Shown: positions 23,172 through 33,930 of the stretch, piece after piece | Layout: each line of letters opens with the position of its first letter | How positions within the stretch are numbered: the stretch's first letter is position 1 | IMG/VR virus record: IMGVR_UViG_3300032770_000003 | Span: 1 to 64,000 of that record | DNA length: 64,000 bases | Source: a virus | Direction: 5' to 3' (one strand) | Made by a program: the position numbers and the translations under genes | Notes under the pieces: generated by a model | Database searches by the model: none | What the model saw: the letters and a program-made list of their open reading frames with translations, nothing else | Told to the model about the DNA's origin: nothing

Positions 23172-23244
23172 TGTTCCCGATGGGATTCGAACCCACAAAC
23201 TTCCGCTTAGGACGCGGACGCCCGTCCGATCGGGCTCCGGGAAC
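23172..23244 (-). tRNA. tRNA-Arg(CCT)
   Basis: cloverleaf; loop GUCCUAA. Confidence 0.85.
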
Positions 23245-23468
23245 TTGCCGAACGACTCGCCAGCGATTTTTCGAACAGAGGGCCAGGTCGTGGAACGCCA
23301 ACCACGCCAGTAAGTTGATCAAGACGGTCATCTGAATGTTGTGCGTCAAAGACCAAGCTTCCAGCTCCCCCCAAGACCGACTGCGGCGTAAGAAGGACTT
23401 GAGAGGAGCTGTCCAAGCCCGCCACCGGTAGTCGTTCGCTGCTGGAATCTCGTAGGCAGCAGGGTAGT

Positions 23469-23987: not shown

Positions 23988-24028
23988 CGGATTCTCCTTC
24001 GCGTCAATGTCGATTCATTGTTCCCTCG

Positions 24029-24101
24029 TGCGCTCGGAGAGATTCGAACTCTCACTTTGTAAGGCTTGAGCTTACTGCCTCTTCCGTTGGGCTACGAGCG
24101 C
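24029..24101 (-). tRNA. tRNA-Leu(CAA), short variable arm
   Basis: loop CUCAAGC. Confidence 0.85.
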
Positions 24102-24102
24102 G

Positions 24103-24315
24103 CTACACCTTATCCCCATCACCATACTCCGCCCGAATCACCTGATACAAGAACCTCCCTTTGGATGGTGCGTCAATGAACTGCTCGAAGACCCCACGCG
24201 GGACGTCCTGGTACGCATAGACAGCTCCGTTGCGAAACTGGACGTAGAGGATCTGTTCCTCGCGGTCGTAGGCCACGGCACTGATGTGCGACGACGCTAC
24301 CGCCTGGATCCTCAT
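24103..24315 (-). CDS. KTSC domain protein
   Basis: VASSHI.AV.YD.....L.V.F.NG.VY.Y..VP...F.....APSKG.F. Confidence 0.9.
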   Translation of the reverse strand: MRIQAVASSHISAVAYDREEQILYVQFRNGAVYAYQDVPRGVFEQFIDAPSKGRFLYQVIRAEYGDGDKV

Positions 24316-24335
24316 GCGACCCAGTTTACATCAAG

Positions 24336-24416
24336 TGCGCTCGGGGGGATTCGAACCCCCATGCCCGAAGGCACGGCTTCTGAGACCGCCACGTATGCCA
24401 GTTCCGTCACGAGCGC
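24336..24416 (-). tRNA. tRNA-Leu(CAG)
   Basis: loop CUCAGAA; long variable arm. Confidence 0.9.
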
Positions 24417-24420
24417 GAAG

Positions 24421-24501
24421 TCGATGGGGAGGGATTCGAACCCTCATGCCGAAGCACTGGCTTCTAACGCCAGCGTGTCTTACCTGTTCCACCACCCACC
24501 G
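24421..24501 (-). tRNA. tRNA-Leu(TAG)
   Basis: loop GUUAGAA; long variable arm. Confidence 0.85.
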
Positions 24502-24523
24502 GATGGGTTGCGACTGCGCAAAG

Positions 24524-24598
24524 TAGCCACGGCGGGATTCGAACCCGCACTGTACACGTCCTCAACGTGCTGCCTCTTCCAAGTTGGGCTACGTGGCC
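24524..24598 (-). tRNA. tRNA-Leu(GAG), short variable arm
   Basis: loop UUGAGGA. Confidence 0.85.
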
Positions 24599-24599
24599 G

Positions 24600-24673
24600 T
24601 GGGGGCGGAGGGATTCGAACCCTCACTGAGCCGGTTTTAGAGCGGCTGCCTCGTCCGGTTGGGCTACACCCCC
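24600..24673 (-). tRNA. tRNA-Leu(TAA), atypical (C33, C31:C39)
   Basis: AGCCG-CUCUAAAAC-CGGCU; completes the Leu cluster. Confidence 0.7.
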
Positions 24674-24698
24674 TGGTGACTCGGGTCATGTGATCTTG

Positions 24699-24792
24699 TC
24701 CGGGTGACAGGAATCGAACCTGTGCACTTGCGCTTATCTAGCGCTAACGCGGGGTATAAAGCCGCTGCTCTACCTAGCTGAGCTACACCCGG
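24699..24792 (-). tRNA. tRNA-Ile(TAT)-like with long variable arm
   Basis: loop UUUAUAC; variable arm GCGCU-AGAUA-AGCGC. Confidence 0.75.
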
Positions 24793-24826
24793 GTCCTTAC
24801 CTTCCTCTCAGAACGAGAGGTGTATA

Positions 24827-24988
24827 ATGCTGATAGCCATAGTCCCGATTGTGATCATGGTGGTTGGCCTCTTGATGTGGGTGCTGGCCGGGAATCCGTA
24901 TGTCAAAGAAGCCGGAAAAATCATGTTCTTCAGCGGGATGCTAGTGACCACCTTTGTGTGTGCGAAGGTCACCTGGCGTATCACCTAA
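24827..24988 (+). CDS. 53-aa two-TM membrane protein, antisense to the tRNA array
   Basis: GAGAGGTG RBS; MLIAIVPIVIMVVGLLMWVLAGNPYVKEAGKIMFFSGMLVTTFVCAKVTWRIT. Confidence 0.7.
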   Translation: MLIAIVPIVIMVVGLLMWVLAGNPYVKEAGKIMFFSGMLVTTFVCAKVTWRIT

Positions 24989-24990
24989 AG

Positions 24991-25061
24991 CGGAGCTGAC
25001 GGGAATCGAACCCGCCTCACGCCGTAGACAGCGGCGCAGCCTCCCAGATGCTTACAGCTCC
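24991..25061 (-). tRNA. tRNA-Asp(GTC)
   Basis: loop CUGUCUA. Confidence 0.85.
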
Positions 25062-25068
25062 ATTCAAG

Positions 25069-25141
25069 TCCGGATGGAGGGAATCGAACCCCCGCTGTCG
25101 TGGTGTGTAGGACCACCGCTCTGCCCCTGAGCTACACCCGG
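25069..25141 (-). tRNA. tRNA-Val(TAC)
   Basis: loop CCUACAC (C33). Confidence 0.85.
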
Positions 25142-25150
25142 GTCATATCG

Positions 25151-25223
25151 TGGGAACGGCAGGCTTTGCTCCTGCGACCTCCGGCGTGTCGAGCCGACGC
25201 TCTCCTGACTGAGCTACGCTCCC
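25151..25223 (-). tRNA. tRNA-Val(GAC)
   Basis: loop UCGACAC (C33); T loop AGCAAAG. Confidence 0.8.
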
Positions 25224-25228
25224 ATGTG

Positions 25229-25301
25229 TCGGGGTAACAGGATTCGAACCTGTGTCGTCTCGGCCCCCAGCCGAGTGCCTGAACCTCTAGGCTACACCCC
25301 G
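25229..25301 (-). tRNA. tRNA-Pro(GGG)
   Basis: loop CUGGGGG. Confidence 0.9.
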
Positions 25302-25658
25302 GTACGAAACAGCATGTGCACGACTACAAAACGGCTTGGACTTGTGTACTAGACGCTTTTCTCTAAGGAACGCTTTTCCACAAAAGGAGCACGTCAAAGG
25401 AACCATGGTCTTGGGTTTGTGATGACGTCGAACGTGCTCAGCCTGAGACACCAACACTTCTAAGTTCTCAAGGCGGTTATCCTTCTTACGTTCATTCTTG
25501 TGGTGAACCACCTCAAGAGCAGTCAGCAGCCGTCCTAAATGGTTTTCCATCACCACACGATGCAGATACACACGTCCTCTTGTATCTGCTGCTGGATGCT
25601 CTGGAACAATTGCCACGTCGTACTGACCGCGGCTCTCTACTCGACGAATCACCCACAC
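25287..25658 (-). CDS. HNH endonuclease; stop codon inside tRNA-Pro
   Basis: HRVVME..LGR.L...EVVHHKN..K.DNRLENL; C-terminal CSFC...FCS. Confidence 0.88.
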   Translation of the reverse strand: MWVIRRVESRGQYDVAIVPEHPAADTRGRVYLHRVVMENHLGRLLTALEVVHHKNERKKDNRLENLEVLVSQAEHVRRHHKPKTMVPLTCSFCGKAFLREKRLVHKSKPFCSRAHAVSYRGVA

Positions 25659-25689
25659 CGGGAAAAGATATCACCACAGAGGGGCTTCG

Positions 25690-25760
25690 TGGCGGTGGAG
25701 GAATCTGCCCCCTCTCCAAGTCCTTATGAGAGACCCGTCTCCTCTGGTGGAGTCACCGCC
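25690..25760 (-). tRNA. tRNA-Met/Ile2(CAT), degenerate D and T loops
   Basis: loop CUCAUAA; GGCGGUG/CACCGCC. Confidence 0.7.
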
Positions 25761-25766
25761 AATCGG

Positions 25767-25840
25767 TACCGCCGACAGGAATCGAACCTGCTCTATTCCG
25801 GTTTCGTAGACCGGCGCCCATCCAATTAGACTACGGCGGT
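25767..25840 (-). tRNA. tRNA-Arg(ACG)
   Basis: loop CUACGAA. Confidence 0.9.
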
Positions 25841-25845
25841 GTGTG

Positions 25846-25918
25846 CGACCCAGCCGGGGGATGATCCCGGATCCTCAGTGTGAAAGACTGAGATGCTTGC
25901 CGTTTACACCACTGGGTC
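25846..25918 (-). tRNA. tRNA-Glu(TTC)
   Basis: loop CUUUCAC; T loop AUCAUCC. Confidence 0.82.
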
Positions 25919-26324
25919 ATTTACGCGATTCACGGCTAATAATCCGCTGAATTTGCTGCCAACAAACTACTGGAAACAGCTTAGCTATAGCTCGAAGTGA
26001 CATAGATGTTGTTGCTCTCAATCGGCGGATCTCAGCTACTTGAGCCACAGTCAGCTTGAACGGACCATCCAAACATTCCTCAGATTTATTCAGATGACAA
26101 GCGTGACAAAGAACTTGACACTTTACTATCTCGGCAGCGCGCTTTGACGCTTTCCAAGACCAAATGTTGTGATCTACTTTCTGTGTGGCGTCGATATGGT
26201 CAAGTTCCAAATCTTCTGTTGCACCACATCTAATGCAACACTTCCCAAAGAAAAATTGTTGTCTCCGCGCAATCATCCACTTACGTTGATACTCCCGCTG
26301 CGTCCGTACGTCCTTATATGGCAT
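25917..26324 (-). CDS. HNH endonuclease with C-terminal HTH, between two tRNA-Glu genes
   Basis: CIRCG..EDLELDHID...KCQVLCHACH. Confidence 0.85.
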   Translation of the reverse strand: MPYKDVRTQREYQRKWMIARRQQFFFGKCCIRCGATEDLELDHIDATQKVDHNIWSWKASKRAAEIVKCQVLCHACHLNKSEECLDGPFKLTVAQVAEIRRLRATTSMSLRAIAKLFPVVCWQQIQRIISRESRK

Positions 26325-26325
26325 G

Positions 26326-26397
26326 TGACCCCATCGGGTATCGATCCCGATCCTCCAGCGTGAGAGGCTGGTGACCTAGCCAGTAGTCTATGGGGCC
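26326..26397 (-). tRNA. tRNA-Glu(CTC)
   Basis: loop CUCUCAC. Confidence 0.88.
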
Positions 26398-26443
26398 AAC
26401 CGGGTTAATAGCCCGGTTATGTGCCCCCAGTGGGGCGATCGAA

Positions 26444-26884
26444 TCAACGACCGAATCGCTTCCGCTGCTTGAAGCGAAGAATTCCTTGAGCGTCCACAAA
26501 CGCTCCCGATACCGGAAGACAAAAGAGTCGATAGGGGCTGTTGTACTGAGTGACGATGTCTCGTTCCACGTGCCGCAGGAAGTGCCACCCCTTGAGCGTC
26601 CGCCGATCGTAGCGACGGCAAAGCTCACTGTAGACATCATTCCAGGGGCGTCCCGCGCGGGACGCCATGAAGCGTTCGGTCTGACTGAAGCGATCACCCA
26701 TCGTGGTCCAGTACTCAGGATCCCTGATGGGATCCGGACCAGCATCGGTGGCGTCTTCCTCCGAACGGATCCGTTTCAGATAGACTCTGATGGCCTGCCT
26801 TTCCGCACGCTGATTCCAGTAGTCCATCGCGCGACCAGCTCTGCCGCCTTCGACGACAGAACGAGCCAGGTTTCGTGTTGCCAT
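26444..26884 (-). CDS. hypothetical basic protein
   Basis: GGGAGG RBS; NLARSVVEGGR...GRPWNDVYSELC...FVDAQGILR. Confidence 0.7.
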   Translation of the reverse strand: MATRNLARSVVEGGRAGRAMDYWNQRAERQAIRVYLKRIRSEEDATDAGPDPIRDPEYWTTMGDRFSQTERFMASRAGRPWNDVYSELCRRYDRRTLKGWHFLRHVERDIVTQYNSPYRLFCLPVSGAFVDAQGILRFKQRKRFGR

Positions 26885-26935
26885 TGATGACCTCCCTTAA
26901 TGGGCTGTGATCATCGGGCACCTCCTTTCCTTTCG

Positions 26936-27003
26936 CGTCCCCTGGGTGAGTTGAACACCCTAACCCGCCTTCGGAGGGCAGGTACCAATCCGTTGGAGAG
27001 GAC
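26936..27003 (-). tRNA. tRNA-Arg(CCG), reduced D arm
   Basis: GUCCUCU/AGGGGAC; loop CUCCGAA; T loop UUCAACU. Confidence 0.65.
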
Positions 27004-27016
27004 AATAGTCAGAGAG

Positions 27017-27091
27017 CGCGCTCGGGGGGAGTCGAACCCCCACACGGCGACTTAGAAGGTCGCTGCTTTTCCAACCTTAAGCTACGAGCGC
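27017..27091 (-). tRNA. tRNA-Arg(TCT)
   Basis: loop CUUCUAA. Confidence 0.9.
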
Positions 27092-27513
27092 ATGAAAATT
27101 CGGTGAGGACCTAGGTAGTCTGTTGCCCATCGCATGTTCTTCTTTTGCTTAGATGCAACAACCCTTAAGTTGAGGTGTACGGCGCCACGCCAGTCTCTTT
27201 GGCGCAAATAGTAACAAAGCCCGTTGTCAGGACAGTAAACAGCAAAAGCATCATAATCCCCTTCTTTGTGAGTACGTATGTGCGTGCCGTGTCTGTCAGC
27301 CCACGAGCTTCTACGTGTCAATCTCAATGATCCTCCACGCAACGCCCTATACTTCACGGAAACTCTGGCCAATCTTCCATCTTCCGCGACCGCAATGAGG
27401 TCAAAAGGAAGATGCTCACTCAAGGGGAGCGCCACATGAAAGTTATTGCGCATAAGGTCAGCAATTACGTGCCCCAGCCCTTGGTCCCCTTTGTCCTTGG
27501 TGTGGTGTCGCAC
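27082..27513 (-). CDS. PD-(D/E)XK endonuclease (group I intron-associated type); stop inside tRNA-Arg
   Basis: TKDKGD.G...V..PLSEHLPFDLI...RVSVK...YD.FAVYCP. Confidence 0.85.
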   Translation of the reverse strand: MRHHTKDKGDQGLGHVIADLMRNNFHVALPLSEHLPFDLIAVAEDGRLARVSVKYRALRGGSLRLTRRSSWADRHGTHIRTHKEGDYDAFAVYCPDNGLCYYLRQRDWRGAVHLNLRVVASKQKKNMRWATDYLGPHRIFMRS

Positions 27514-27529
27514 AAAACCAGAATACCAG

Positions 27530-27602
27530 CTCCAGGAGCAGGAATCGAACCTGCCTCATCTCGCTTAACAGGCGAGCGCTTAAACCGATCAGCCATCCTG
27601 GA
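27530..27602 (-). tRNA. tRNA-Asn(GTT)
   Basis: loop CUGUUAA. Confidence 0.9.
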
Positions 27603-27605
27603 ATA

Positions 27606-27745
27606 GAGCGAACGAAATTATTAGCACTGAGAAGTTTTGAGACGGGATTCGAATCCGCGACCTCCGGCTTTTCGGGCCGGCGCTCTACCACTGAGCTACA
27701 TCCCCGTAATGTGGGGATGGACAACCCAACACAAGCGGCTCGCTC
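27606..27745 (-). ncRNA. Y RNA-like element Y1 carrying a permuted tRNA-Phe-like cloverleaf
   Basis: GAGCGAGCCGC...UUUCGUUCGCUC bulged-C helix; internal CAUCCCC/GGGGAUG, D arm, CCGAAAA loop, T arm. Confidence 0.75.
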
Positions 27746-27747
27746 AG

Positions 27748-27820
27748 AGCCTGTCCCCTGAATCGAACAGGGTATCTCCGCATTACAAGTGCGGCGCTTC
27801 GCCAGCAAAGCTTGACAGGC
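27748..27820 (-). tRNA. tRNA-Thr(TGT)
   Basis: loop CUUGUAA. Confidence 0.88.
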
Positions 27821-27842
27821 AGGTGCTCCACCCTCCCCGCAG

Positions 27843-27914
27843 AGCTGCTGCCGAGAATCGAACTCGGTTTTCCGTTTTACGAAAACGGCGCGTCACCATT
27901 TACGCTTCAGCAGC
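27843..27914 (-). tRNA. tRNA-Thr(CGT)
   Basis: loop UUCGUAA. Confidence 0.88.
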
Positions 27915-28018
27915 ACGAACGAACGCGGTCACATCTCAACTGGAACGTTCAGCACTCGGCGTTCTACCAAACACCGACTGAACGGAGGAACCAGCAGCGA
28001 GGTGACCTCCTGGTACTG

Positions 28019-28091
28019 AGCTGGTGGAGCGAATCGAACGCTCTCCCTCCCCGATACCAACGGGGTGCTCACCCAAATGAGCTTCACCAGC
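28019..28091 (-). tRNA. tRNA-Thr(GGT)
   Basis: loop UUGGUAU. Confidence 0.88.
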
Positions 28092-28097
28092 GATCGG

Positions 28098-28169
28098 AGC
28101 ACTGTGCGGAACTCGAATCCGCGTGGAACAGCTTGGAAGGCTGCCGCCTAACCTCTCGGCCAACAGTGC
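28098..28169 (-). tRNA. tRNA-Gly(TCC)
   Basis: loop CUUCCAA. Confidence 0.9.
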
Positions 28170-28176
28170 AGTTCTG

Positions 28177-28248
28177 AGCATCCAGCGGGAGTTGAACCCG
28201 CTATTCCAGCTTGGCAAGCTGGCGTGTAGCCACAAACACTTTGGATGC
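28177..28248 (-). tRNA. tRNA-Gly(GCC)
   Basis: loop UUGCCAA. Confidence 0.88.
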
Positions 28249-28251
28249 AAG

Positions 28252-28333
28252 GGGTGGACAAAGAATTGAGGACGGAAACGGGGTTTTCGCCCCGAGTCTC
28301 CAATGACGATAACCGTCCTCTGGCGGCCCACCC
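28252..28333 (-). ncRNA. Y RNA-like element Y2
   Basis: GGGUGGGCCGC...UUUGUCCACCC; upper stem GAGGACGG/CCGUCCUC; GUUAUC. Confidence 0.8.
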
Positions 28334-28337
28334 ACAG

Positions 28338-28408
28338 AGGTCTTGGTCAGAGTTGAACTGACGATGGCGCTTTTGCAGAGCGCTGCCTTGCCACTTGGCT
28401 ACAAGACC
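28338..28408 (-). tRNA. tRNA-Cys(GCA)
   Basis: loop CUGCAAA. Confidence 0.9.
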
Positions 28409-28413
28409 GAAAG

Positions 28414-28503
28414 AGGAGATGAAGCGAGTTGAACGCTCGGAGCCTTTGCAGGACTCGGTAGTTTAGCAAACTACTGTGGAAAACCGTCATCCACGTCATC
28501 TCC
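28414..28503 (-). tRNA. tRNA-Ser(GCT)
   Basis: loop UUGCUAA; long variable arm. Confidence 0.82.
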
Positions 28504-28508
28504 AAGAG

Positions 28509-28597
28509 AGGAAGGCGGAGGTCACGATCCCCATGCCGGTCACCCGGACACGCACTGTTTTCGAAACAGGCTCAGCACCAGTGCCGATTCGCCTTCC
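28509..28597 (-). tRNA. tRNA-Ser(CGA)
   Basis: loop UUCGAAA; long variable arm; atypical T loop. Confidence 0.78.
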
Positions 28598-28599
28598 AA

Positions 28600-28770
28600 G
28601 AAAGGTTCGACGGGTTCTTCCCCCGCTGATGACGGCCCAGCTCCCCGGCATTTCAAAAGTCACCATTGACCGGATCGTCGCGGCCTGCGCGTCAGTAGGC
28701 ACACGATGGGTGCCCCCATCATGACTACTATCCTGCACACTGTATGTGTACACCGTGCTGCGAACCTTTC
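28600..28770 (-). ncRNA. unassigned multi-hairpin RNA
   Basis: 10-bp closing stem GAAAGGUUCG/CGAACCUUUC filling the inter-tRNA spacer. Confidence 0.5.
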
Positions 28771-28771
28771 G

Positions 28772-28859
28772 AGGAGACGGCGTGAGTCGAACACGCGTGA
28801 CGCTTTCGCGATCAGCCACAGCTTTCCAAGCTGGCACATTTCCGCTCTGTCACGTCTCC
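28772..28859 (-). tRNA. tRNA-Ser(GGA)
   Basis: loop UUGGAAA; long variable arm. Confidence 0.88.
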
Positions 28860-28862
28860 AAA

Positions 28863-28950
28863 GCGGCCCGGGATTCCGTCGGGTCTGCGGTGCACCACTA
28901 CCCGATAACGTACCCGGTTGGCTTGCGGGTTAACAACCCGGGCCTGCCGC
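28863..28950 (-). ncRNA. possible permuted Y-like element Y3 (divergent)
   Basis: GCCCGG-GUUGUU-loop-AGCCAA-CCGGGU then GUUAUC; closed by GCGGC/GCCGC. Confidence 0.45.
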
Positions 28951-28974
28951 ATATTCAGTTGTCGTACGCTCAGG

Positions 28975-29298
28975 CTAGCAGGAGAAGCAGATACCGCCAC
29001 CACGCTTGTGGGGCATGTTCCGCGTCCCCTCCTTTCCGTTGCGCATCTTTCCGCCGAATCGGATCTTCTTGGTCAGAACCCGGATGGGCCCTCCGTCCGG
29101 TGGGCGGAAGGCTCTGGCATCGACCTGCGTGTACCCCTGCGCGAGCAAGCTGTGCTTCATGCAGTTGAACGCTTCGGTAGTCGATGAATGGGCCTTGATC
29201 TTGTCCTTGTCGAGGCTGTGATTCAGCGGGGTCAAAGTTCCTGTACAGTATTCCTCGGCAGTACCACACAGATACAGATACGGACGTCGGGCTGGCAC
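28975..29298 (-). CDS. hypothetical basic protein
   Basis: AAGGAG RBS, GTG start. Confidence 0.6.
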   Translation of the reverse strand: MPARRPYLYLCGTAEEYCTGTLTPLNHSLDKDKIKAHSSTTEAFNCMKHSLLAQGYTQVDARAFRPPDGGPIRVLTKKIRFGGKMRNGKEGTRNMPHKRGGGICFSC

Positions 29299-29562
29299 AG
29301 TGGGCTCCTTGGTTCGAGAGAGATTCGGTGAATCGACTCGAACGAGAAGCCCATCAGCGTGACGTCAGCCCCGCGAGTTACATGACACGCACCCGCGTGG
29401 AGGTGACGTCGGCCCTACTCATTTCGTGACTCATAGGGATTCGACCTCCTTTCAATTAAGGTGAACCAAGTCTGCGCCTGACATTTGGTTCGTCTGAACT
29501 TCCACAGGGTCAGGATCATAGACTCCAGGATCGTCTTAGCGTCCATTGACTCGGTCCACCAG

Positions 29563-29648
29563 CGGAGAGAGGAGGAATCGAACCCCCTGCGTTCGTCACG
29601 ACAGCCCCCGCGTTCAAGGCGGGTTTCCGACCAATCGGGGCTCTCTCC
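29563..29648 (-). tRNA. tRNA-Ser(TGA)
   Basis: loop CUUGAAC; long variable arm. Confidence 0.82.
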
Positions 29649-29651
29649 ATA

Positions 29652-29758
29652 GGGCGAACGAATTGATCGCTGGTCCGTTCCCCGTACCGGCAAGGTACGG
29701 GTCCTTCCTCCCGTCGAGCGGGCAGTGTGCCGATAACGAACCAACAGGCGGCTCGCCC
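29652..29758 (-). ncRNA. Y RNA-like element Y4
   Basis: GGGCGAGCCGC...UUCGUUCGCCC; upper stem UGUUGGUUCG/CGGACCAGCG; GUUAUC; two effector hairpins. Confidence 0.8.
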
Positions 29759-29760
29759 AG

Positions 29761-29829
29761 CGGGCTGATAGGGAATTGAACCCTACCCTACCGTTTTGGA
29801 GACGGTTTGGCCTCCTTGGCCTTCAGCCC
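29761..29829 (-). tRNA. tRNA-Trp(CCA), compact
   Basis: GGGCUGA/UCAGCCC; loop CUCCAAA. Confidence 0.75.
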
Positions 29830-30210
29830 TCTACTACGTCGTTTCCAATCCCGACACACCTCACAGCGACAATGTTGTCTAACATACATCGAAGCCGTTC
29901 CGTGTTGACGCCTGCGCGTCCAGAACTCACGCATTTCTGTTCGTGTCTTACGCCAGTGACACGCAACACACAACAACTGGCACTTGCTAAGTTCCTCCAG
30001 AAGAACAATAAGCGGTCGTCCGATATGTTTGGTAATCGCAAACAGTTTCGTACTAGGATCGACATGATCAAAGTCGAGTCCACACGTGTCACCACACCAA
30101 ACGCACCTGTCGCCAAGAAAAGCCATCATGACTCGTATGCGGGTACGATACCGCTGACTATCGTAGAGTCGATGATAGCGTCTTTGGTACTCCTTTTCTC
30201 GCACTGCCAC
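29788..30210 (-). CDS. HNH endonuclease reading 42 nt into tRNA-Trp
   Basis: LGDRCVWCG...LDFDHVDP..K...ELSKCQLLC..CH; HGT..Y...CRC..C. Confidence 0.85.
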   Translation of the reverse strand: MAVREKEYQRRYHRLYDSQRYRTRIRVMMAFLGDRCVWCGDTCGLDFDHVDPSTKLFAITKHIGRPLIVLLEELSKCQLLCVACHWRKTRTEMREFWTRRRQHGTASMYVRQHCRCEVCRDWKRRSRGLKAKEAKPSPKR

Positions 30211-30237
30211 GGTTCACTGCAACTCGTATAACACAGA

Positions 30238-30312
30238 TGGTGGAGGCGCGGAGAGTCGAACTCCGGATTACCGGGTGCAAACCGGTCGTGTTCCCGCTAG
30301 CACTACGCCCCC
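30238..30312 (-). tRNA. tRNA-Ala(TGC)
   Basis: loop UUUGCAC; G3:U70; encoded CCA. Confidence 0.92.
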
Positions 30313-30450
30313 AGACTCAACAAATACAACGGAGAGCATACCGAGTCCACCACAGATTCGGCACTGCTTGAGTGTCATGTCGTTGTAGCCTCGCCCCTGA
30401 CAGGCTGGACAACGTCCACATGCTGTGCTCTGCTTTTTTCTTTAGGCATG

Positions 30451-30523
30451 TCGGGATGACTGGATTCGAACCAGCGTCGTCACGCTCCCAAAGCGTGTGC
30501 CTGAACCCCTAGGCTACATCCCG
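30451..30523 (-). tRNA. tRNA-Pro(TGG)
   Basis: loop UUUGGGA. Confidence 0.9.
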
Positions 30524-30877
30524 TTTGTGTCGACGAAAATACTCACGAACGAACGCGCGACAAACATCACAACGGCATCGACGTTTGTAGCGTCCCCAAG
30601 TCCCGTGCCCTGGTGTACGCTCCAGCCTGGTTTTCAGATCATGACAAACTGCACACAGTAACTGACACTTAGCGAGTTCAGCTTCTACTCTTTTCGTGGA
30701 CCAGGACCATATCCTCGAAACAGACGCTGTCTTGGTTGTCCGGTCTATGTGGTCAAACTCAAGATTTTGCACTGATCCACACCAAGCACAGCAACCACCT
30801 AGCTTAGCAATCCAAGCGGCACGTAGCGCATGATAACGACGCAAACAATAAGCACTATGTGCTGGTCCGGATATCAC
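30509..30877 (-). CDS. HNH endonuclease; stop inside tRNA-Pro
   Basis: LGGCCAWCG...LEFDHID...ELAKCQLLC..CH; HGT..Y..CRC..C. Confidence 0.85.
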   Translation of the reverse strand: MISGPAHSAYCLRRYHALRAAWIAKLGGCCAWCGSVQNLEFDHIDRTTKTASVSRIWSWSTKRVEAELAKCQLLCAVCHDLKTRLERTPGHGTWGRYKRRCRCDVCRAFVREYFRRHKRDVA

Positions 30878-30884
30878 GAGTTAG

Positions 30885-30956
30885 TTCCACGGCGTGGATT
30901 CGAACCACGACAAGCAACTTCAAAGGATGCTGTCCTACCTATTAGACCACCGTGGA
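30885..30956 (-). tRNA. tRNA-Gln(TTG)
   Basis: loop CUUUGAA. Confidence 0.88.
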
Positions 30957-30960
30957 TCGA

Positions 30961-30997
30961 TACGTCAAGCAGTCCTGACCAATTGGACGAACCCGGA
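30961..30997 (-). ncRNA. tRNA 5' half (partner of 31096-31139)
   Basis: UCCGGGU-UC-GUCC-AAUUGGUCA-GGAC-U-GCUUG. Confidence 0.55.
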
Positions 30998-31005
30998 TCG
31001 CTGGG

Positions 31006-31079
31006 GGTGAGAAACCGGAGTCGCACCGGCTAGACCGTGGGTCACAGCCACGGGGCTCCACTCTTTGCCTTTTCTCACC
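31006..31079 (-). tRNA. tRNA-His(GTG)
   Basis: loop CUGUGAC; G-1:C73. Confidence 0.82.
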
Positions 31080-31095
31080 GCAATCGCTTCTTGGC

Positions 31096-31139
31096 CTCCG
31101 GGGTGAGTGATTTGAACACTCGCGCGGATGCTCACGTCA
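31096..31139 (-). ncRNA. tRNA 3' half (partner of 30961-30997)
   Basis: UGAGC-variable-GAGUG-UUCAAAU-CACUC-ACCCCGGA-G. Confidence 0.55.
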
Positions 31140-31144
31140 TTTCG

Positions 31145-31217
31145 TGCACGCATCGGGAGTCGAACCCGCGTCTCACGCTTATCGGGCGTGTGCTCTAGCC
31201 TGCTGAGCTATGCGTGC
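31145..31217 (-). tRNA. tRNA-Ile(GAT)
   Basis: loop CCGAUAA (C33). Confidence 0.88.
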
Positions 31218-31534
31218 GCACATTCCGTGTTTTCACAGTGCTCCTCACCATGACAGTTCAAGCACAGGAGTACACATTTCCGCAATTCGGTCTCGATCTT
31301 ACTCCAGGAACAAGCCCCACCAATGCCGAATGACTTCTCACCTGGATGATGAAAAATCAACGAGCGATGGCAACGGTTGTATCCACACCGATTACAACAC
31401 CCTCCTAGTAATGCTACCGCTTTGGCCTTCGTACGACGCCGCCAGACTTTCAGCTGATCATACGTTCGGCAGTTCCTGCACCGTCCCGTCTTGTTTCTTG
31501 ACGAGAGGTCTGTACCACACCGATCACATACCAT
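31208..31534 (-). CDS. HNH-like endonuclease; stop inside tRNA-Ile
   Basis: LGGCCNRCGY..C..SL.FHH...K.F.I...ELRKCVLLC.NCH.E.H. Confidence 0.85.
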   Translation of the reverse strand: MVCDRCGTDLSSRNKTGRCRNCRTYDQLKVWRRRTKAKAVALLGGCCNRCGYNRCHRSLIFHHPGEKSFGIGGACSWSKIETELRKCVLLCLNCHGEEHCENTECAHA

Positions 31535-31606
31535 GTCAGTCAGTGCTTATCAAAGAAAGATAAGACGATCAAGGACCCATCCTGACCATTAGATGAAAGG
31601 TGCAGG

Positions 31607-31735
31607 CGCGCGACGCCGGGACTCGAACCCGGATCTCCTCTTTCCATAGAGAGATAACCCTACCCAAGCGGCTCGGTTCCCCGAACGAAGAGACGAGCAG
31701 GATGTTTAGCGCTCTACCATTGAGCTACATCGCGC
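31607..31735 (-). ncRNA. Y5: tRNA-shaped RNA with an inserted, loop-closed Ro-binding domain
   Basis: acceptor GCGCGAUG/CGUCGCGC; D arm; AUCCUGCUCG/UGGGUAGGGU; UUCGUUCGG-GGAA-CCGAGCCGC; GUUAUC; T arm. Confidence 0.78.
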
Positions 31736-31740
31736 ATGAG

Positions 31741-31809
31741 GCGACGGACAAAGGGAACGTGCTGGGTGGTTTACCTTGAAGTGGTAACCCAACACTTGCG
31801 GCCCGTCGC
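31741..31809 (-). ncRNA. Y6: minimal Y RNA-like element
   Basis: GCGACGGGCCGC...UUUGUCCGUCGC; GUGUUGGG/CCCAGCAC; GUUACC. Confidence 0.8.
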
Positions 31810-31813
31810 TTTG

Positions 31814-31888
31814 TCGGAGTGGTGTGAATCGAACACACGTCATCTCGGTCCCGAACCGAGTGCCTGAAACCCACTAGGCTACACCCCG
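31814..31888 (-). tRNA. tRNA-Pro(CGG)
   Basis: loop UUCGGGA. Confidence 0.9.
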
Positions 31889-31890
31889 AA

Positions 31891-32004
31891 GATGTGATGG
31901 AGAGCGTTTGGATTCGAACCATTAGCTCCGATAACCCTTTCCGGTCGGCTCGCAGCGAGGCGAACAAAAGATTTGGAGAGGGAGTTGCCACTCTCCACCA
32001 CGTC
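31891..32004 (-). ncRNA. Y7: circularly permuted Y RNA-like element with T loop
   Basis: outer stem GUGGUGGAGAGUG/CGCUCUCCAUCAC; UUUUGUUCGC-loop-GCGAGCCGA; GUUAUC; UGG-UUCGAAU-CCA. Confidence 0.75.
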
Positions 32005-32005
32005 G

Positions 32006-32078
32006 TGCCCTAGTCCTGAATCGAACAGGAATCTTTGCAGTTTCAGTGCAACGCCTTCACCAGATAGGCTTCCAGGGC
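32006..32078 (-). tRNA. tRNA-Phe(GAA)
   Basis: loop CUGAAAC. Confidence 0.88.
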
Positions 32079-32165
32079 ATGATTGGCGGGCTTGGCAGGC
32101 CCGCCGCAGTCGCAACTATGAAGTTGTCAGTGATCAGATTTCAGGGGGAGCTACCCCACTGTCTG

Positions 32166-32236
32166 TTGGGGCGGAAGGAATTGCACCCTCATTCACGGAG
32201 TCAGAGTCCGCTGTCCTCCTGTTGGACGACATCCCA
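32166..32236 (-). tRNA. tRNA-Gln(CTG)
   Basis: loop CUCUGAC. Confidence 0.88.
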
Positions 32237-32252
32237 TCAATTTGTTCTGTCG

Positions 32253-32324
32253 TGAGCTGCCGGCGACTTGCACGCCGCTAGTCGGTTTAAGAGACCGATC
32301 CGTCGCTATCTACGGTTGCAGCCC
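32253..32324 (-). tRNA. tRNA-Lys(CTT)
   Basis: loop CUCUUAA. Confidence 0.82.
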
Positions 32325-32473
32325 GTTTCTTGTAAGCCGGCTCGTGTTTCGTCCAGCGAGTATCCTTCAATCAACGCGAGGTAGATTCCCTGATCTCCCA
32401 GTCCAGACAACTCCTTTGCTCGGGCAGTAGCCCATTCAACCTGTTCGTCCAGTGTAAGCAACCTTCTGCGCAT
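32306..32473 (-). CDS. 55-aa ORF between two tRNA-Lys genes
   Basis: MRRRLLTLDEQVEWATARAKEL...; ATG 3 nt after the upstream tRNA, stop inside the downstream tRNA. Confidence 0.4.
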   Translation of the reverse strand: MRRRLLTLDEQVEWATARAKELSGLGDQGIYLALIEGYSLDETRAGLQETGCNRR

Positions 32474-32476
32474 CTG

Positions 32477-32550
32477 TGCAGCCGACAGGACTTGAACCTG
32501 CTCAGTCCGTCTTAAAAGGACGGTGCCCAGACCAGTCGGGCGCCAGCTGC
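32477..32550 (-). tRNA. tRNA-Lys(TTT)
   Basis: loop CUUUUAA. Confidence 0.88.
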
Positions 32551-32555
32551 ATCGG

Positions 32556-32642
32556 TCGGCGGGGTGGGAATCGAACCCACCGGCGACCCGAAGGTCAACG
32601 CGTTTACGGCGCGCCCGGACTCCATTGTCCTGTTTCCCGCCG
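32556..32642 (-). tRNA. tRNA-Tyr(GTA) with C1:G72
   Basis: loop CCGUAAA (C33); long variable arm. Confidence 0.8.
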
Positions 32643-32678
32643 AAAAGGTCAGCGGGCGTTTATACGCAGGATCGGCCA

Positions 32679-32846
32679 TCAGTTCTCCCCTCCTCTCCGG
32701 ATGCGAGTCTTGCGCACCAGATCTTGCCAGCGATGCAAGCCGGGCTTCAGCTTGCCGTTTTTGTCACGAAGTTCCAATTCACCTTTTTCGTTGATGTACC
32801 GAGCTATGACTTGCTCGGCAGCTCGAACCAGCTTGGGCTTCCTCAA
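32679..32846 (-). CDS. small basic protein, first gene after the attenuator
   Basis: GGAGG RBS then TTG; MRKPKLVRAAEQVIARY... Confidence 0.5.
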   Translation of the reverse strand: MRKPKLVRAAEQVIARYINEKGELELRDKNGKLKPGLHRWQDLVRKTRIRRGGEN

Positions 32847-32862
32847 GGCTGCCTCCAAAACG

Positions 32863-32897
32863 AAAAAAGCCGCCTCGAAGAAGTTCTCCGGGCGGCT
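32863..32897 (-). terminator. intrinsic terminator of the array attenuator
   Basis: AGCCGCC-CGGAGAACUUCUUCGA-GGCGGCU followed by UUUUUCGUUUU. Confidence 0.85.
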
Positions 32898-32923
32898 GAT
32901 GCAGGGGTCAATGACTTGACTCG

Positions 32924-33076
32924 TTACATCAGCCACCCTTTATCTTCGGTCGTCCCAAACTCCGGATGGCAGACTGTTGAGCTTGGGACACTCGGATTCG
33001 CGGCAGCGTACACCCAACCGCGTCGGGGCTTGAGGCCCTCGCGGAGAATCTGGGTGGACAGCTGCTGCGACAACAT
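32924..33076 (-). CDS. putative attenuator leader peptide (50 aa, all 20 amino acids)
   Basis: MLSQQLSTQILREGLKPRRGWVYAAANPSVPSSTVCHPEFGTTEDKGWLM*; its 3' end pairs with the terminator 5' arm. Confidence 0.7.
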   Translation of the reverse strand: MLSQQLSTQILREGLKPRRGWVYAAANPSVPSSTVCHPEFGTTEDKGWLM

Positions 33077-33088
33077 GATGACCAATTC

Positions 33089-33117
33089 ACGGTAGGCACA
33101 GGGCGATCGAGATGCAA
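33089..33117 (-). promoter_or_regulatory. sigma70-type promoter of the tRNA/Y RNA array
   Basis: TTGCAT-17-TACCGT with an upstream A6 tract. Confidence 0.65.
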
Positions 33118-33174
33118 GGACTTTTTTCTGGGTTCCTCCTTGACTCGCGATTTCCCTACGCTTTACCTGTCTAG

Positions 33175-33930
33175 TCAGACACTGATCGGGCCGCCGTAGT
33201 CAATGAATCCTACGTTGATCTCGCTGATCAAGCGGACACGCTCGTAGACCCCGTCTCCGTCACGGGAGCCCGCCACGTTGGTATTCCCCTCCACGGTCAG
33301 GATCTCGCCCGCGCGGACTCCGGTCACGAGACCGGTATGACCGTGGTCGTTCCCGTGATCGATGATGAAAACCGACCCCACCGCGATCTTGGTCGGATCG
33401 TCGAACGCCATCCCGGCCAGGAGCTTCGTCGCCGGAGGCGACGCCGCCCACAGCTCAGCCACTGAGCCCGTCTTCACGCAAGGATTGGGAACGTTCAATT
33501 TAAGCGCCGCGTTATCGAAGCACCAGTAGACAAAACACGCACACCAGGCGTAGCCCTTGGTCGGATCGAGCCCGACTGACTGGACGTAGAGATCAACCAT
33601 GGGGCCCCGGTTCGGAACCCCCTTGGTCTCGCGCACCCCGACCTGGGATGTGGCCTGTTCGAGCAACGCCCGCAGCAGCTTCGACTTGGGCGTGATCTGG
33701 ATCGGATTCGGTTGATAGAAGAGCGCTGTCCACGTGCGCGGACCGACGACTCCATCAGCCGGCAGACCACGCCGAGTCTGGAAGAGCTTGACGGCACTCT
33801 CCGTCGCGGGACCATAGTAGCCATCGATCGCGGAAGGATCGCAGCCCACCAGCGCCAGCTGGCGCTGAACCTCCAGCACAGACGACGCCGGGCCACTGTT
33901 GAGGCGAAGGGCTCGACCAGGATAAGTCAT
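33175..33930 (-). CDS. endolysin: peptidoglycan-binding domain plus CHAP amidase
   Basis: DGYYGPAT..AVK.FQ...GL..DGVVGP.TW; AWCACFV, GHTGLV, TVEGNT. Confidence 0.92.
   Translation of the reverse strand: MTYPGRALRLNSGPASSVLEVQRQLALVGCDPSAIDGYYGPATESAVKLFQTRRGLPADGVVGPRTWTALFYQPNPIQITPKSKLLRALLEQATSQVGVRETKGVPNRGPMVDLYVQSVGLDPTKGYAWCACFVYWCFDNAALKLNVPNPCVKTGSVAELWAASPPATKLLAGMAFDDPTKIAVGSVFIIDHGNDHGHTGLVTGVRAGEILTVEGNTNVAGSRDGDGVYERVRLISEINVGFIDYGGPISV

What the first reader, a model, noticed from the sequence alone, without database searches (positions are those of the whole stretch)
30961..31139. Permuted split tRNA whose two halves bracket tRNA-His
Seen in transcript order: a 3' half (UGAGC, variable region, T arm, ACCCCGGA-G; 31139-31096), then the entire tRNA-His, then a 5' half (UCCGGGU, D arm, GCUUG; 30997-30961). 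The halves are complementary in both the acceptor stem (UCCGGG/CCCGGA) and the anticodon stem (GCUUG/UGAGC), with the break in the anticodon loop. Established: permuted tRNA genes are described in some algae and archaea. Inference: processing gives a two-piece tRNA mimicking an anticodon-cleaved tRNA (ligase substrate or decoy), or an YrlA-topology domain with a tRNA nested in its acceptor loop.
Basis: partly seen in the sequence, partly recalled or inferred. Interest (0 to 1): 0.72.

Follow-up and report, generated by a model that had tools for sequence, protein, structure and literature searches.

The report
Permuted tRNA-like module enclosing tRNA-His
In a large wetland phage's tRNA gene array, the back and front halves of one glutamine-type tRNA lie in swapped order around the phage's only (odd-looking) tRNA-His gene, a layout like the tRNA-like part of bacterial Y RNAs; it is real and not chance, but it was seen only once and whether it does anything is untested.

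Summary
The 187-nt spacer between tRNA-Ile(GAU) and tRNA-Gln(UUG) (31143-30957, minus strand) holds, in transcript order:
- a canonical T arm plus a 3' acceptor strand;
- a sub-threshold tRNA-His(GUG);
- a 5' acceptor strand plus a canonical D arm.

These are the only orphan T arm and the only good orphan D arm in the 11-kb array. They pair at the acceptor stem and at an 8-bp terminal helix (chance about 4e-4). Both halves look like tRNA-Gln.

The order T arm, acceptor, D arm is that of the YrlA tRNA-like domain. About 40 such modules near Ro60 genes have 3-12-nt acceptor loops; here the loop is 99 nt and contains a tRNA. There is no Ro60-binding helix.

A decoding split tRNA is not supported:
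- there is no anticodon loop and no bulge-helix-bulge motif;
- the phage encodes no RNA ligase, splicing endonuclease or CCA enzyme.

The element is absent from every other phage array examined, including G006, whose array follows almost the same gene order. Two HNH endonuclease genes flank the segment, and tRNA-Gln(UUG) has moved here.

Best reading (0.45): a rearrangement-born, YrlA-topology module that becomes a two-piece tRNA-like RNA once tRNA-His is excised. Close rival (0.35): inert rearrangement debris. No expression or covariation data could be obtained.

The parts
31144..31217 (-). tRNA-Ile(GAU), upstream neighbour; its 3' processing sets the 5' end of the element
   Evidence: ARAGORN; Rfam tRNA 59.9 bits
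31130..31143 (-). 5' tail GAAAUG plus the 5' strand of the terminal helix ACGUGAGC (3' strand of the anticodon-stem equivalent)
   Evidence: Read. Pairs with 30970-30962. Kept in the MFE of the whole spacer and in the cofold of the two pieces.
31122..31129 (-). 8-nt variable-region equivalent AUCCGCGC (longer than the usual 4-5 nt)
   Evidence: It can alternatively pair with the acceptor 3' strand or the D-stem 3' strand in MFE folds.
31105..31121 (-). Orphan T arm GAGUG/UUCAAAU/CACUC with G53:C61, U54, U55, C56, A58
   Evidence: Only T arm outside a tRNA or Y RNA in the 11-kb array
31096..31104 (-). 3' acceptor strand A-CCCCGGA plus G (discriminator-like)
   Evidence: 6 Watson-Crick bp with 30997-30992; ARAGORN's alternative register has one C.C mismatch
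31080..31095 (-). 16-nt linker GCCAAGAAGCGAUUGC, which is also the 5' leader of tRNA-His
31006..31079 (-). Non-canonical tRNA-His(GUG): G-1:C73, acceptor GUGAGAA/UUCUCAC, A8, 3-bp D stem, anticodon loop CUGUGAC, T arm GCCGG/UGCGACU/CCGGU. It is the only tRNA-His candidate in the 171-kb genome.
   Evidence: - ARAGORN calls it only at the 70% threshold.
- No Rfam tRNA hit at E<=10.
- His-like genes with a UGCRA T loop occur in L103, L126, L156, L127, L130, L149 and L105, and their anticodon and T arms covary.
30998..31005 (-). 8-nt linker CCCAGCGA: 3' trailer of tRNA-His and 5' leader of the 5' half
30971..30997 (-). 5' acceptor strand UCCGGGU, then UC, then orphan D arm GUCC/AAUUGGUCA/GGAC (U8, A14, G18 G19, A21 present), then U26
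   Evidence: - Only good orphan D arm in the array.
- Best match is a tRNA-Gln(CUG) 5' half in L131.
- The first five acceptor pairs, UCCGG/CCGGA, also open the acceptor stem of tRNA-Gln(UUG) in L193.
30957..30970 (-). 3' strand of the terminal helix GCUU(G)ACGU plus tail AUCGA
30884..30956 (-). tRNA-Gln(UUG), downstream neighbour; RNase P cleavage at its 5' end would set the 3' end of the element
   Evidence: ARAGORN; Rfam tRNA 61.3 bits
31208..31534 (-). HNH endonuclease gene upstream of tRNA-Ile
   Evidence: PHROG HNH families, E 1e-17
30509..30877 (-). HNH endonuclease gene downstream of tRNA-Gln
   Evidence: PHROG HNH families, E 1e-32

Best explanation
The two halves are one unit: a circularly permuted, anticodon-less tRNA-like module derived from a tRNA-Gln-type gene.

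Anatomy:
- It is laid out like the tRNA-like domain of YrlA Y RNAs: T arm, 3' acceptor strand, 'acceptor loop', 5' acceptor strand, D arm.
- It is closed at the far end by an 8-bp helix with one bulged G.
- Its 'acceptor loop' is 99 nt and carries the phage's only tRNA-His gene.

Origin (inferred): it arose in this phage lineage by rearrangement of the Ile-His-Gln segment, which is now bracketed by two HNH endonuclease genes.

Mechanism (inferred):
1. The spacer is transcribed with the tRNA/Y-RNA array.
2. RNase P and 3'-end processing of tRNA-Ile, tRNA-His and tRNA-Gln cut it out and open the loop.
3. A canonical acceptor/T-arm stack would also let RNase P cut at U1 of the 5' half, 8 nt behind tRNA-His.
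4. What is left is a nicked, two-piece tRNA-like RNA held together by the acceptor stem and the terminal helix. This resembles M. smegmatis YrlA after RNase P cleavage, but without a Ro60-binding helix.

Shown: the anatomy, non-chance complementarity, single tRNA-Gln-like origin, YrlA-like order, lineage specificity.

Inferred: expression, processing, two-piece assembly, and any function (most simply, supplying canonical processing sites around a very deviant tRNA-His).
For: Unit and non-chance:
- Only orphan T arm and only good orphan D arm in the array.
- Complementarity at both stems, chance about 4e-4.
- All universal tRNA core bases are intact in both halves (sequence).
- Rejoined halves are called as a cloverleaf by ARAGORN at the 90% threshold. 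That is the same level as four tRNAs of this array that are only called at 90%.

Topology:
- The same order is seen in about 40 modules with 3-12-nt loops next to Ro60 genes.
- Modules in L104, L119, L125, L126, L144 and L149 are hit by Rfam YrlA at E 6e-7 to 7e-4.
[quoted passage not shown] It also reports RNase P cleavage plus CCA addition giving two Rsr-bound halves of M. smegmatis YrlA.

Context:
- The phage encodes Ro60.
- Other spacers of the array are Y-RNA-like RNAs closed by terminal helices.

Single origin:
- The 5' half is closest to tRNA-Gln (score 18, next best 11).
- The first five acceptor pairs match those of tRNA-Gln(UUG) in L193, and the acceptor resembles that of tRNA-Gln in L159.

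Rearrangement:
- In the near-syntenic array of G006, Ile and His are adjacent and Gln(CUG)-Gln(UUG) sit upstream.
- Here Gln(UUG) sits behind the element and two HNH genes flank the segment.

Folding and inner tRNA:
- Cofolding the two pieces after removing His keeps the terminal helix, T arm and acceptor stem.
- The inner tRNA-His belongs to a structurally covarying family.
Against: - It is a single instance. It is absent around tRNA-His in the seven other phage arrays found through HNH homologues (L183, L185, L186, L189, L193, L198, L204). My scan found no other true large-loop case in 198 loci.
- No covariation test was possible and there are no RNA data.
- There are imperfections: a 6-bp acceptor stem plus a mismatch or bulge, and an 8-nt variable region.
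- The nested double cloverleaf is 11 kcal/mol worse than the MFE, and the spacer's fold is no better than shuffles (z = -0.74).
- The D arm is lost in the cofold MFE.
- There is no Ro60-binding helix and no Rfam hit.
- The intact structure could be inherited from a recent functional tRNA rather than maintained by selection.
Confidence: 0.45

Rival explanations
1. Inert rearrangement debris. A tRNA-Gln-type gene was duplicated or broken during HNH-associated reshuffling of the Ile-His-Gln segment. What remains is the 3' half of one copy and the 5' half of another. The complementarity is inherited, the pieces are degraded after the flanking tRNAs are processed, and they have no function.
For: - The element is lineage-specific. 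It is absent in the near-syntenic array of G006 and in six other arrays.
- tRNA-Gln(UUG) has been relocated and two HNH genes flank the segment.
- Imperfect acceptor stem and over-long variable region.
- No thermodynamic signal.
- A 6-nt direct repeat UGACGU lies at both ends and could be a junction scar.
- Tandem duplication is the standard model for how permuted tRNA genes arise (PMC3978253).
Against: - All 11 universal core bases, the 5/5 T stem, the 4/4 D stem and the 5/5 anticodon-stem pairs are intact, although the halves are at most about 70% like any tRNA of this genome.
- The array holds no other tRNA debris.
- Both break points fall exactly at the base of the anticodon stem, and the tails extend the helix by 4 bp.
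- The direct repeat is not significant (P about 0.05).
Confidence: 0.35
2. A Ro60-linked Y-RNA variant. The module is the effector (tRNA-like) part of a Y RNA. It either binds the phage Ro60 through a non-canonical helix, or works beside the Y RNAs of the same array.
For: - Ro60 is encoded 15 kb downstream on the same strand.
- Several Y-RNA-like elements lie in the same array.
- The topology is YrlA-like.
- The near-syntenic G006 array carries a canonical YrlA whose 3' acceptor strand is identical to that of its own tRNA-His and whose 5' strand differs by one base.
Against: - There is no GNCGAA-type or G(G/A)GCCG...UUYGUYC helix at the ends. The terminal helix has its bulge (a G) on the opposite strand.
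- No Rfam YrlA or Y_RNA hit at E<=10.
Confidence: 0.08
3. A true split or permuted decoding tRNA, or a mimic of an anticodon-cleaved tRNA. The halves would be joined by an RNA ligase, or used as bait for one or for an anticodon nuclease.
For: - 3'-half-first gene order, as in algal and archaeal permuted tRNA genes (PMC3978253).
- ARAGORN models the rejoined halves as a tRNA with a 13-nt 'intron'.
Against: - There is no 7-nt anticodon loop or credible anticodon.
- There is no bulge-helix-bulge motif.
- The phage encodes no RtcB, Rnl1, Rnl2, splicing endonuclease or CCA enzyme (the Rnl1 search had no positive control).
- The ends that RNase P and 3' processing would leave carry 9-nt tails.
- A decoy for an anticodon nuclease would need an intact anticodon loop.
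Confidence: 0.07
4. Chance resemblance: unrelated tRNA-like fragments that happen to pair.
For: The core CCGG of the acceptor strands is palindromic, which inflates apparent pairing. Several competing pairings exist.
Against: - Joint chance is about 4e-4.
- These are the only orphan arms in the array.
- Both halves are of tRNA-Gln type.
Confidence: 0.05

Closest known systems
YrlA, the tRNA-like bacterial and phage Y RNAs (Rfam RF02553; Chen et al. 2014, PMC4201824)
   Same: - The order T arm, acceptor stem-loop, D arm, closed by a helix at the anticodon-stem position.
- Conserved T-loop and D-loop bases.
- It is encoded in a genome with Ro60 and other Y RNAs.
- M. smegmatis YrlA is cut by RNase P in its acceptor loop into two halves that stay together, which is what excising the nested tRNA would do here.
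   Different: - No Ro60-binding helix or GNCGAA motif.
- The acceptor 'loop' is 99 nt and holds a whole tRNA gene, against 3-12 nt in about 40 modules.
- No Rfam hit.
- It lies 15 kb from Ro60, not adjacent to it.
- Ro60 binding is untested.
Circularly permuted tRNA genes of Cyanidioschyzon, green algae and Thermofilum (review: Soma 2014, PMC3978253)
   Same: The 3' half lies upstream of the 5' half on one strand. The break is at the anticodon arm. The intervening sequence forms an acceptor loop that RNase P and tRNase Z would remove.
   Different: - Those genes give complete decoding tRNAs. They pass through a bulge-helix-bulge junction, a splicing endonuclease, a ligase and a circular intermediate.
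- Their intervening sequences are 1-74 bp with no gene inside.
- They are known only in eukaryotes and archaea.
- Here there is no anticodon loop, no such motif and no such enzymes.
Two-piece tmRNA from permuted ssrA genes (alpha-proteobacteria and some cyanobacteria; from my own knowledge, and mentioned in PMC3978253)
   Same: A bacterial precedent for a permuted gene whose tRNA-like domain is assembled from two RNA pieces after an intervening segment is excised.
   Different: There is no tag reading frame, no pseudoknots and no alanine identity pair. ARAGORN finds no tmRNA.
Dimeric or tandem tRNA genes
   Same: The T arm and 3' acceptor strand of one gene, followed by the 5' acceptor strand and D arm of the next, imitate this order. 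Chen 2014 notes such false positives. My L132 hit was of this kind.
   Different: Here neither half has its other half: there is no upstream 5' half and no downstream 3' half.

Membership tests
Circularly permuted tRNA gene | 3' half upstream of the 5' half on the same strand, joined at the acceptor ends by an intervening sequence | tested here: met
   The intervening sequence is 99 nt; the known range is 1-74 bp.
Circularly permuted tRNA gene | The halves together encode a complete cloverleaf with a 7-nt anticodon loop and an anticodon | tested here: not met
   The stems end in 9-nt tails. ARAGORN needs a 13-nt 'intron' and a relaxed threshold.
Circularly permuted tRNA gene | Bulge-helix-bulge motif formed by leader and trailer at the junction | tested here: not met
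   Reading: a 4-bp helix with a single 1-nt bulge on one strand, no 3-nt bulges and no outer helix.
Circularly permuted tRNA gene | Splicing endonuclease and RNA ligase available to make the circular intermediate | tested here: not met
   No PF01974, PF01139, PF09414 or PF09511 match in the phage. The Rnl1 search had no positive control. The host is unknown.
YrlA (RF02553) | tRNA-like domain in the order T arm, acceptor stem-loop, D arm | tested here: met
   The topology is described in PMC4201824.
YrlA (RF02553) | Ro60-binding helix formed by the RNA ends (GNCGAAN0-1G on the 5' strand, bulged helix) | tested here: not met
   No such motif in 31143-31122 or 30971-30957. Compare the modules listed.
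YrlA (RF02553) | Match to the Rfam covariance model | tested here: not met
   No YrlA hit at E<=10. Control modules in other loci hit at E 6e-7 to 7e-4.
YrlA (RF02553) | Encoded beside a Ro60 gene | tested here: inconclusive
   Ro60 lies at 14450-16075 on the same strand, 15 kb away rather than adjacent.
YrlA (RF02553) | Bound by Ro60 in vivo | not testable with these tools
   Needs a pull-down.
Two-piece tmRNA | Tag reading frame and pseudoknots after the 5' acceptor strand; G3.U70 pair | tested here: not met
   ARAGORN finds no tmRNA. tRNA-Gln follows 9 nt after the stem. Positions 3:70 are C:G or C.C.
tRNA (RF00005), for the inner tRNA-His | Score above the finder thresholds | tested here: not met
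   No Rfam hit at E<=10. ARAGORN calls it only at the 70% threshold.
tRNA (RF00005), for the inner tRNA-His | Cloverleaf with GUG anticodon and G-1:C73, conserved in relatives | tested here: met
   Cloverleaf read. Seven His-like genes with UGCRA T loops have covarying anticodon and T arms. L126 and L149 members pass Rfam tRNA.

The most novel reading that the evidence does not exclude
The halves are made and kept as a functional two-piece tRNA-like RNA that is created by excising a tRNA nested in its acceptor loop. That would be a 'tRNA inside a tRNA-like RNA' processing design and a Ro60-independent cousin of YrlA. It would also be a caught-in-the-act example of how YrlA-type permuted modules are born from rearranged tRNA genes in phage arrays.
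Probability: 0.3. Interest if true: 0.7.

Novelty: new variant of a known kind. Interest (0 to 1): 0.45.

Why it matters
If the two pieces are stable, this would be the first permuted tRNA-like RNA in a bacterial virus whose acceptor loop is itself a tRNA gene. It would link three things usually treated apart:
- permuted tRNA genes of algae and archaea;
- two-piece tmRNA;
- the tRNA-like domain of Y RNAs.

It also offers a concrete route by which YrlA-type modules could arise: rearrangement of tRNA genes in endonuclease-rich phage arrays. And it suggests that canonical tRNA-like flanks may help process very deviant tRNAs.

If the element is debris, it still documents how fast these arrays are reshuffled. 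The G006 array has almost the same gene order but lacks the element.

Tried and rejected
Searches for relatives of the element:
- blastn of 30850-31250 against 50,697 phage records gave only 57-nt tRNA-like hits.
- The exact T-arm/acceptor pattern gave 0 hits in viral contigs.
- A tRNA-His T-arm pattern gave 14 loci, none related.
- Relatives found through the 617-aa neighbour gene have no tRNAs at all.
- The single Ro60 protein and the 258-aa neighbour gave nothing in viral contigs.
- Ro60 alignment scans gave 160 loci at 44-62% identity. They did not reach the contigs of the closest Ro60 proteins: P0004 and P0005 (59-61% identical, on contigs of 36 and 102 kb) and P0009 (53%, 170 kb).

Sequencing runs:
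- No RNA holder was listed.
- Laid contigs show no variants. A second wetland sample holds one identical 151-nt piece.

Structure and signals:
- Rfam finds nothing for the element. The Tymo_tRNA-like and malK-III matches are noise.
- MFE folds do not favour the nested double cloverleaf.
- No promoter or terminator lies inside.
- The 62-aa ORF at 30965-31153 has no Pfam match and is taken as spurious.
- Pfam misses the HNH domain in both flanking ORFs. PHROGs finds it.

False leads:
- My scanner's other large-loop hit (L132) turned out to be two tandem tRNA-order Y RNAs.
- The shared 6-mer UGACGU at both ends is not significant (P about 0.05).
- I looked for a Ro60 helix in the linker (GAGGCCAAG) and in the D-arm region (UUCGUCC). 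No consistent pairing was found.
- The 103-nt spacer 27915-28017 is not a tRNA-Met.

Not run:
- A covariance model of the outer domain, because a 99-nt insertion would split the match.

Full report
**What is there**

The window is the first 64 kb of a 171.5-kb uncultured phage from a wetland metagenome. On the minus strand it carries one long tRNA array, 32642 to 23170. ARAGORN tRNAs in the window at default settings (32 of them in this array, plus tRNA-Ile(AAU) on the plus strand at 13194) and 37 in the array at its 90% threshold.

The finding is the 187-nt spacer 31143-30957, between tRNA-Ile(GAU) and tRNA-Gln(UUG). In transcript order it reads:
- GAAAUG;
- ACGUGAGC;
- AUCCGCGC;
- T arm GAGUG/UUCAAAU/CACUC;
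- A-CCCCGGA-G;
- a 16-nt linker;
- a tRNA-His-like cloverleaf (31079-31006);
- CCCAGCGA;
- UCCGGGU-UC;
- D arm GUCC/AAUUGGUCA/GGAC;
- U;
- GCUUGACGU;
- AUCGA.

**Pairing of the halves**

- The acceptor strands give six Watson-Crick pairs. A seventh pair needs either a C.C mismatch (ARAGORN's register) or a one-base bulge.
- The 'anticodon stem' GCUUG/UGAGC pairs 5/5 with two G.U. It is more stable drawn as 8 bp (ACGU+GAGC with GCUU+ACGU) with a bulged G. Both the whole-spacer MFE and the two-piece cofold recover this form.

**More than chance**

- In the 11-kb array, every canonical T arm lies in a called tRNA, the tRNA-His candidate or a Y-RNA-like element (Y4), except one at 31121 and one poor coding-region match. 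The only good orphan D arm is at 30988. The array is therefore not littered with tRNA debris. It has exactly one spare T arm and one spare D arm, and they match each other.
- With the array's base composition, the chance that a random 3' flank of a T arm and 5' flank of a D arm meet my criteria is about 4e-4. The criteria were at least 6/7 acceptor pairs, and 5/5 anticodon-stem pairs within 7 offsets.
- When the halves are rejoined in silico, ARAGORN calls a cloverleaf at its 90% threshold. Four tRNAs of this array are also only called at 90%.
- All universal core bases are present: U8, A14, G18, G19, A21, G53, U54, U55, C56, A58, C61.

**The inner gene**

- The 'entire tRNA-His' falls below the thresholds of both finders. 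ARAGORN calls it only at 70%, where false calls abound. The Rfam tRNA model gives no hit at E<=10.
- It is the only tRNA-His candidate in the genome.
- By eye it is a good cloverleaf. It has G-1:C73, a 7-bp acceptor stem, a 5-bp anticodon stem with loop CUGUGAC, and a 5-bp T stem. Its T loop is UGCGACU (G55), position 8 is A, and the D stem has 3 bp.
- His(GUG)-like genes with UGCRA T loops occur next to Ro60 genes in L103, L126, L156, L127, L130, L149 and L105. In an alignment of these, the anticodon and T arms show compensatory changes. Two of them pass the Rfam tRNA threshold.
- I take the inner gene as a probably working, strongly deviant tRNA-His. In none of those loci is it bracketed by half tRNAs.

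**Context**

- The phage encodes a Ro60 (TROVE) protein at 14450-16075 on the same strand.
- Several spacers of the array are Y-RNA-like RNAs closed by terminal helices. Some are fused to tRNA-like parts in various orders (earlier notes; sequences; Rfam tRNA hits with long insertions).
- No promoter-like or terminator-like site lies inside the element.
- HNH endonuclease genes lie just upstream of tRNA-Ile and just downstream of tRNA-Gln.

**Comparison with YrlA**

I wrote a scanner for this order: T arm, 3' acceptor strand, gap, complementary 5' acceptor strand, two bases, D arm. I ran it on the phage genome and 198 fetched loci.

- It found 48 orphan modules with gaps of 3-12 nt, mostly 7. 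About 40 have the typical UA-GCUC...GAGC D arm and lie between GGGCCGAAG...GGGUUAUC and CUUGCCC-type strands, that is, in canonical YrlA RNAs.
- Rfam's YrlA model hits the modules in L104, L119, L125, L126, L144 and L149 at E 6e-7 to 7e-4.
- Chen et al. [quoted passage not shown] They also show that M. smegmatis YrlA is cut by RNase P in that loop, gains CCA, and persists as two Rsr-bound halves.
- The element here has the same order, but the gap is 99 nt and holds a tRNA. There is no Ro60-binding helix at its ends.
- It is the only true large-gap case in the data. The other candidate, in L132, was two tandem tRNA-order Y RNAs.

**Relatives**

No near relative carrying the element was found.

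Homologues of the downstream HNH gene led to phage arrays L183, L185, L186, L189, L193 and L198. The upstream HNH gene led to L204.

L193 lies on G006, a 133.5-kb contig that encodes Ro60.
- Its array follows almost the same order as ours over about 40 tRNAs.
- Its tRNAs are only 59-77% identical to ours.
- There the order is Pro(CGG), Ile(GAU), then 1 nt, a canonical tRNA-His, 169 nt, and Pro(UGG). Gln(CUG)-Gln(UUG) lie together upstream, and there are no HNH genes in this stretch.
- Ile(GAU) followed by tRNA-His is also seen in L186 and L189. L183 has a tRNA that ARAGORN labels His(AUG) in that position.
- No array has half tRNAs around tRNA-His.

So the halves are specific to this lineage. 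Their appearance coincides with three other changes: relocation of Gln(UUG), replacement of a canonical tRNA-His by the deviant one, and arrival of two HNH genes. At this divergence, absence says little about function.

G006 also has a canonical YrlA at L193 3669-3815. Its 3' acceptor strand (CGGUCAC) is identical to that of G006's own tRNA-His, its 5' strand (GUGGACG) differs from that tRNA's GUGGCCG by one base, and it has the same UC-GUCU...GGAU type of D arm.

**Origin of the halves**

- Against 822 tRNAs from all loci, the 5' half is closest to a tRNA-Gln(CUG) in L131 (score 18, next best 11). Gln is the commonest type among the top 50 matches.
- The first five acceptor pairs, UCCGG/CCGGA, also open the acceptor stem of tRNA-Gln(UUG) in L193. 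The acceptor also resembles that of a tRNA-Gln in L159, which shares the GCGCGA stretch before the T stem.
- The same D-arm type also occurs in some phage tRNA-His genes.
- Both halves therefore trace to one tRNA type, not to two different decayed genes.
- Within this genome, no tRNA is more than about 70% like either half. The module is thus not a fresh copy of an extant gene.

**How it most likely works**

Everything in this section is inference.

1. The array is one transcription unit.
2. RNase P cuts at the 5' ends of tRNA-Gln and tRNA-His (retaining G-1), and 3'-end processing follows tRNA-Ile and tRNA-His. Together these release two pieces.
3. The acceptor/T-arm stack of the outer module would also present a standard RNase P site at 30997/30998, 8 nt behind tRNA-His. 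A discriminator-like G lies at 31096, 16 nt ahead of it. This spacing is typical of neighbouring tRNAs in the array.
4. The pieces can stay together through the acceptor stem and the terminal helix. The cofold keeps both, plus the T arm.
5. The result is a nicked, anticodon-less tRNA-like RNA comparable to RNase-P-cleaved YrlA.

Its role, if any, is open. The simplest idea is that it supplies canonical processing handles for a very deviant tRNA-His.

Thermodynamics gives no support. The nested double cloverleaf is at -53.4 kcal/mol against an MFE of -64.4. The whole spacer's fold has z = -0.74 against shuffles.

**Rivals**

- Inert debris from rearrangement is nearly as likely (0.35).
- A decoding split tRNA, ligase substrate or nuclease decoy is unlikely. 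There is no anticodon loop and no bulge-helix-bulge motif. No RtcB, Rnl1/2, splicing endonuclease or CCA enzyme is encoded. The defining features are taken from PMC3978253.
- A Ro60-bound variant is unlikely without a Ro60-binding helix.
- Chance is excluded for practical purposes.

**Verdict**

The element is a real, single-origin, permuted tRNA-like module with YrlA topology and a nested tRNA. It is a new variant of a known kind, seen once, with function unproven.

An earlier first-reader note had already listed Y RNAs in this same array, over a stretch that includes this spacer. I found nothing like this element on other DNA.

Noticed in passing
L193 1-12264 plus L203 1-5300 (G006, IMGVR_UViG_3300031712_000052): A 133.5-kb phage contig carries a tRNA array with almost the same gene order as this window's over about 40 tRNAs (Tyr-Lys-Lys...Leu x5...Ile(AAU)). 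Its Ro60 gene sits inside the array. The tRNAs are only 59-77% identical to ours. It is the best comparator for every feature of this array.
   Followed up: partly
L193 3669-3815: A canonical YrlA whose 3' acceptor strand (CGGUCAC) is identical to that of the same phage's tRNA-His and whose 5' strand (GUGGACG) differs from it (GUGGCCG) by one base. This suggests YrlA modules may copy, or derive from, a particular tRNA.
   Followed up: no
L103 7200-7570; L156 2790-3130; L126 1-135; L127 1260-1610: Clusters of tRNA-like genes lie just upstream of Y RNAs and Ro60. They have UGCGA/UGCAA T loops, an encoded CCA end and aberrant D arms with no GG. This window's Lys(CUU) and Gln(CUG) (UGCAA) and its tRNA-His (UGCGA) share this type of T loop.
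   Followed up: partly
L132 1204-1336 and 1491-1637: Two tandem 'tRNA-order' Y RNAs, with a Ro60 helix in place of the anticodon loop, lie upstream of a Ro60 gene. They mimic a large-loop permuted module in pattern scans.
   Followed up: partly
window 22500-33500 (whole genome scanned): ARAGORN finds no tRNA-Met in this phage at default or 90% thresholds. The near-syntenic G006 array has two. The 103-nt spacer 27915-28017 is not one.
   Followed up: partly
window 30313-30449 (minus strand): An unexplained 137-nt spacer lies between tRNA-Pro(UGG) and tRNA-Ala. It has no family match and no obvious Y-RNA motif. In G006 the corresponding interval holds YrlA RNAs, Ro60 and an HNH gene.
   Followed up: no
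window 30238-30312 (minus strand): tRNA-Ala(UGC) ends in an encoded CCA, unlike most tRNAs of the array. It also scores 38.8 bits on the Rfam tmRNA model, below the gathering score of 47.
   Followed up: no
window 31139-31134 and 30967-30962 (minus strand): The same 6-mer, UGACGU, occurs at both ends of the element. It could be a duplication or recombination scar, but it is not significant on its own (P about 0.05).
   Followed up: yes
window 30990-31140: A second wetland sample from a different study holds an identical 151-nt piece covering most of the element. The phage, or a very close strain, is therefore not confined to one sample.
   Followed up: no
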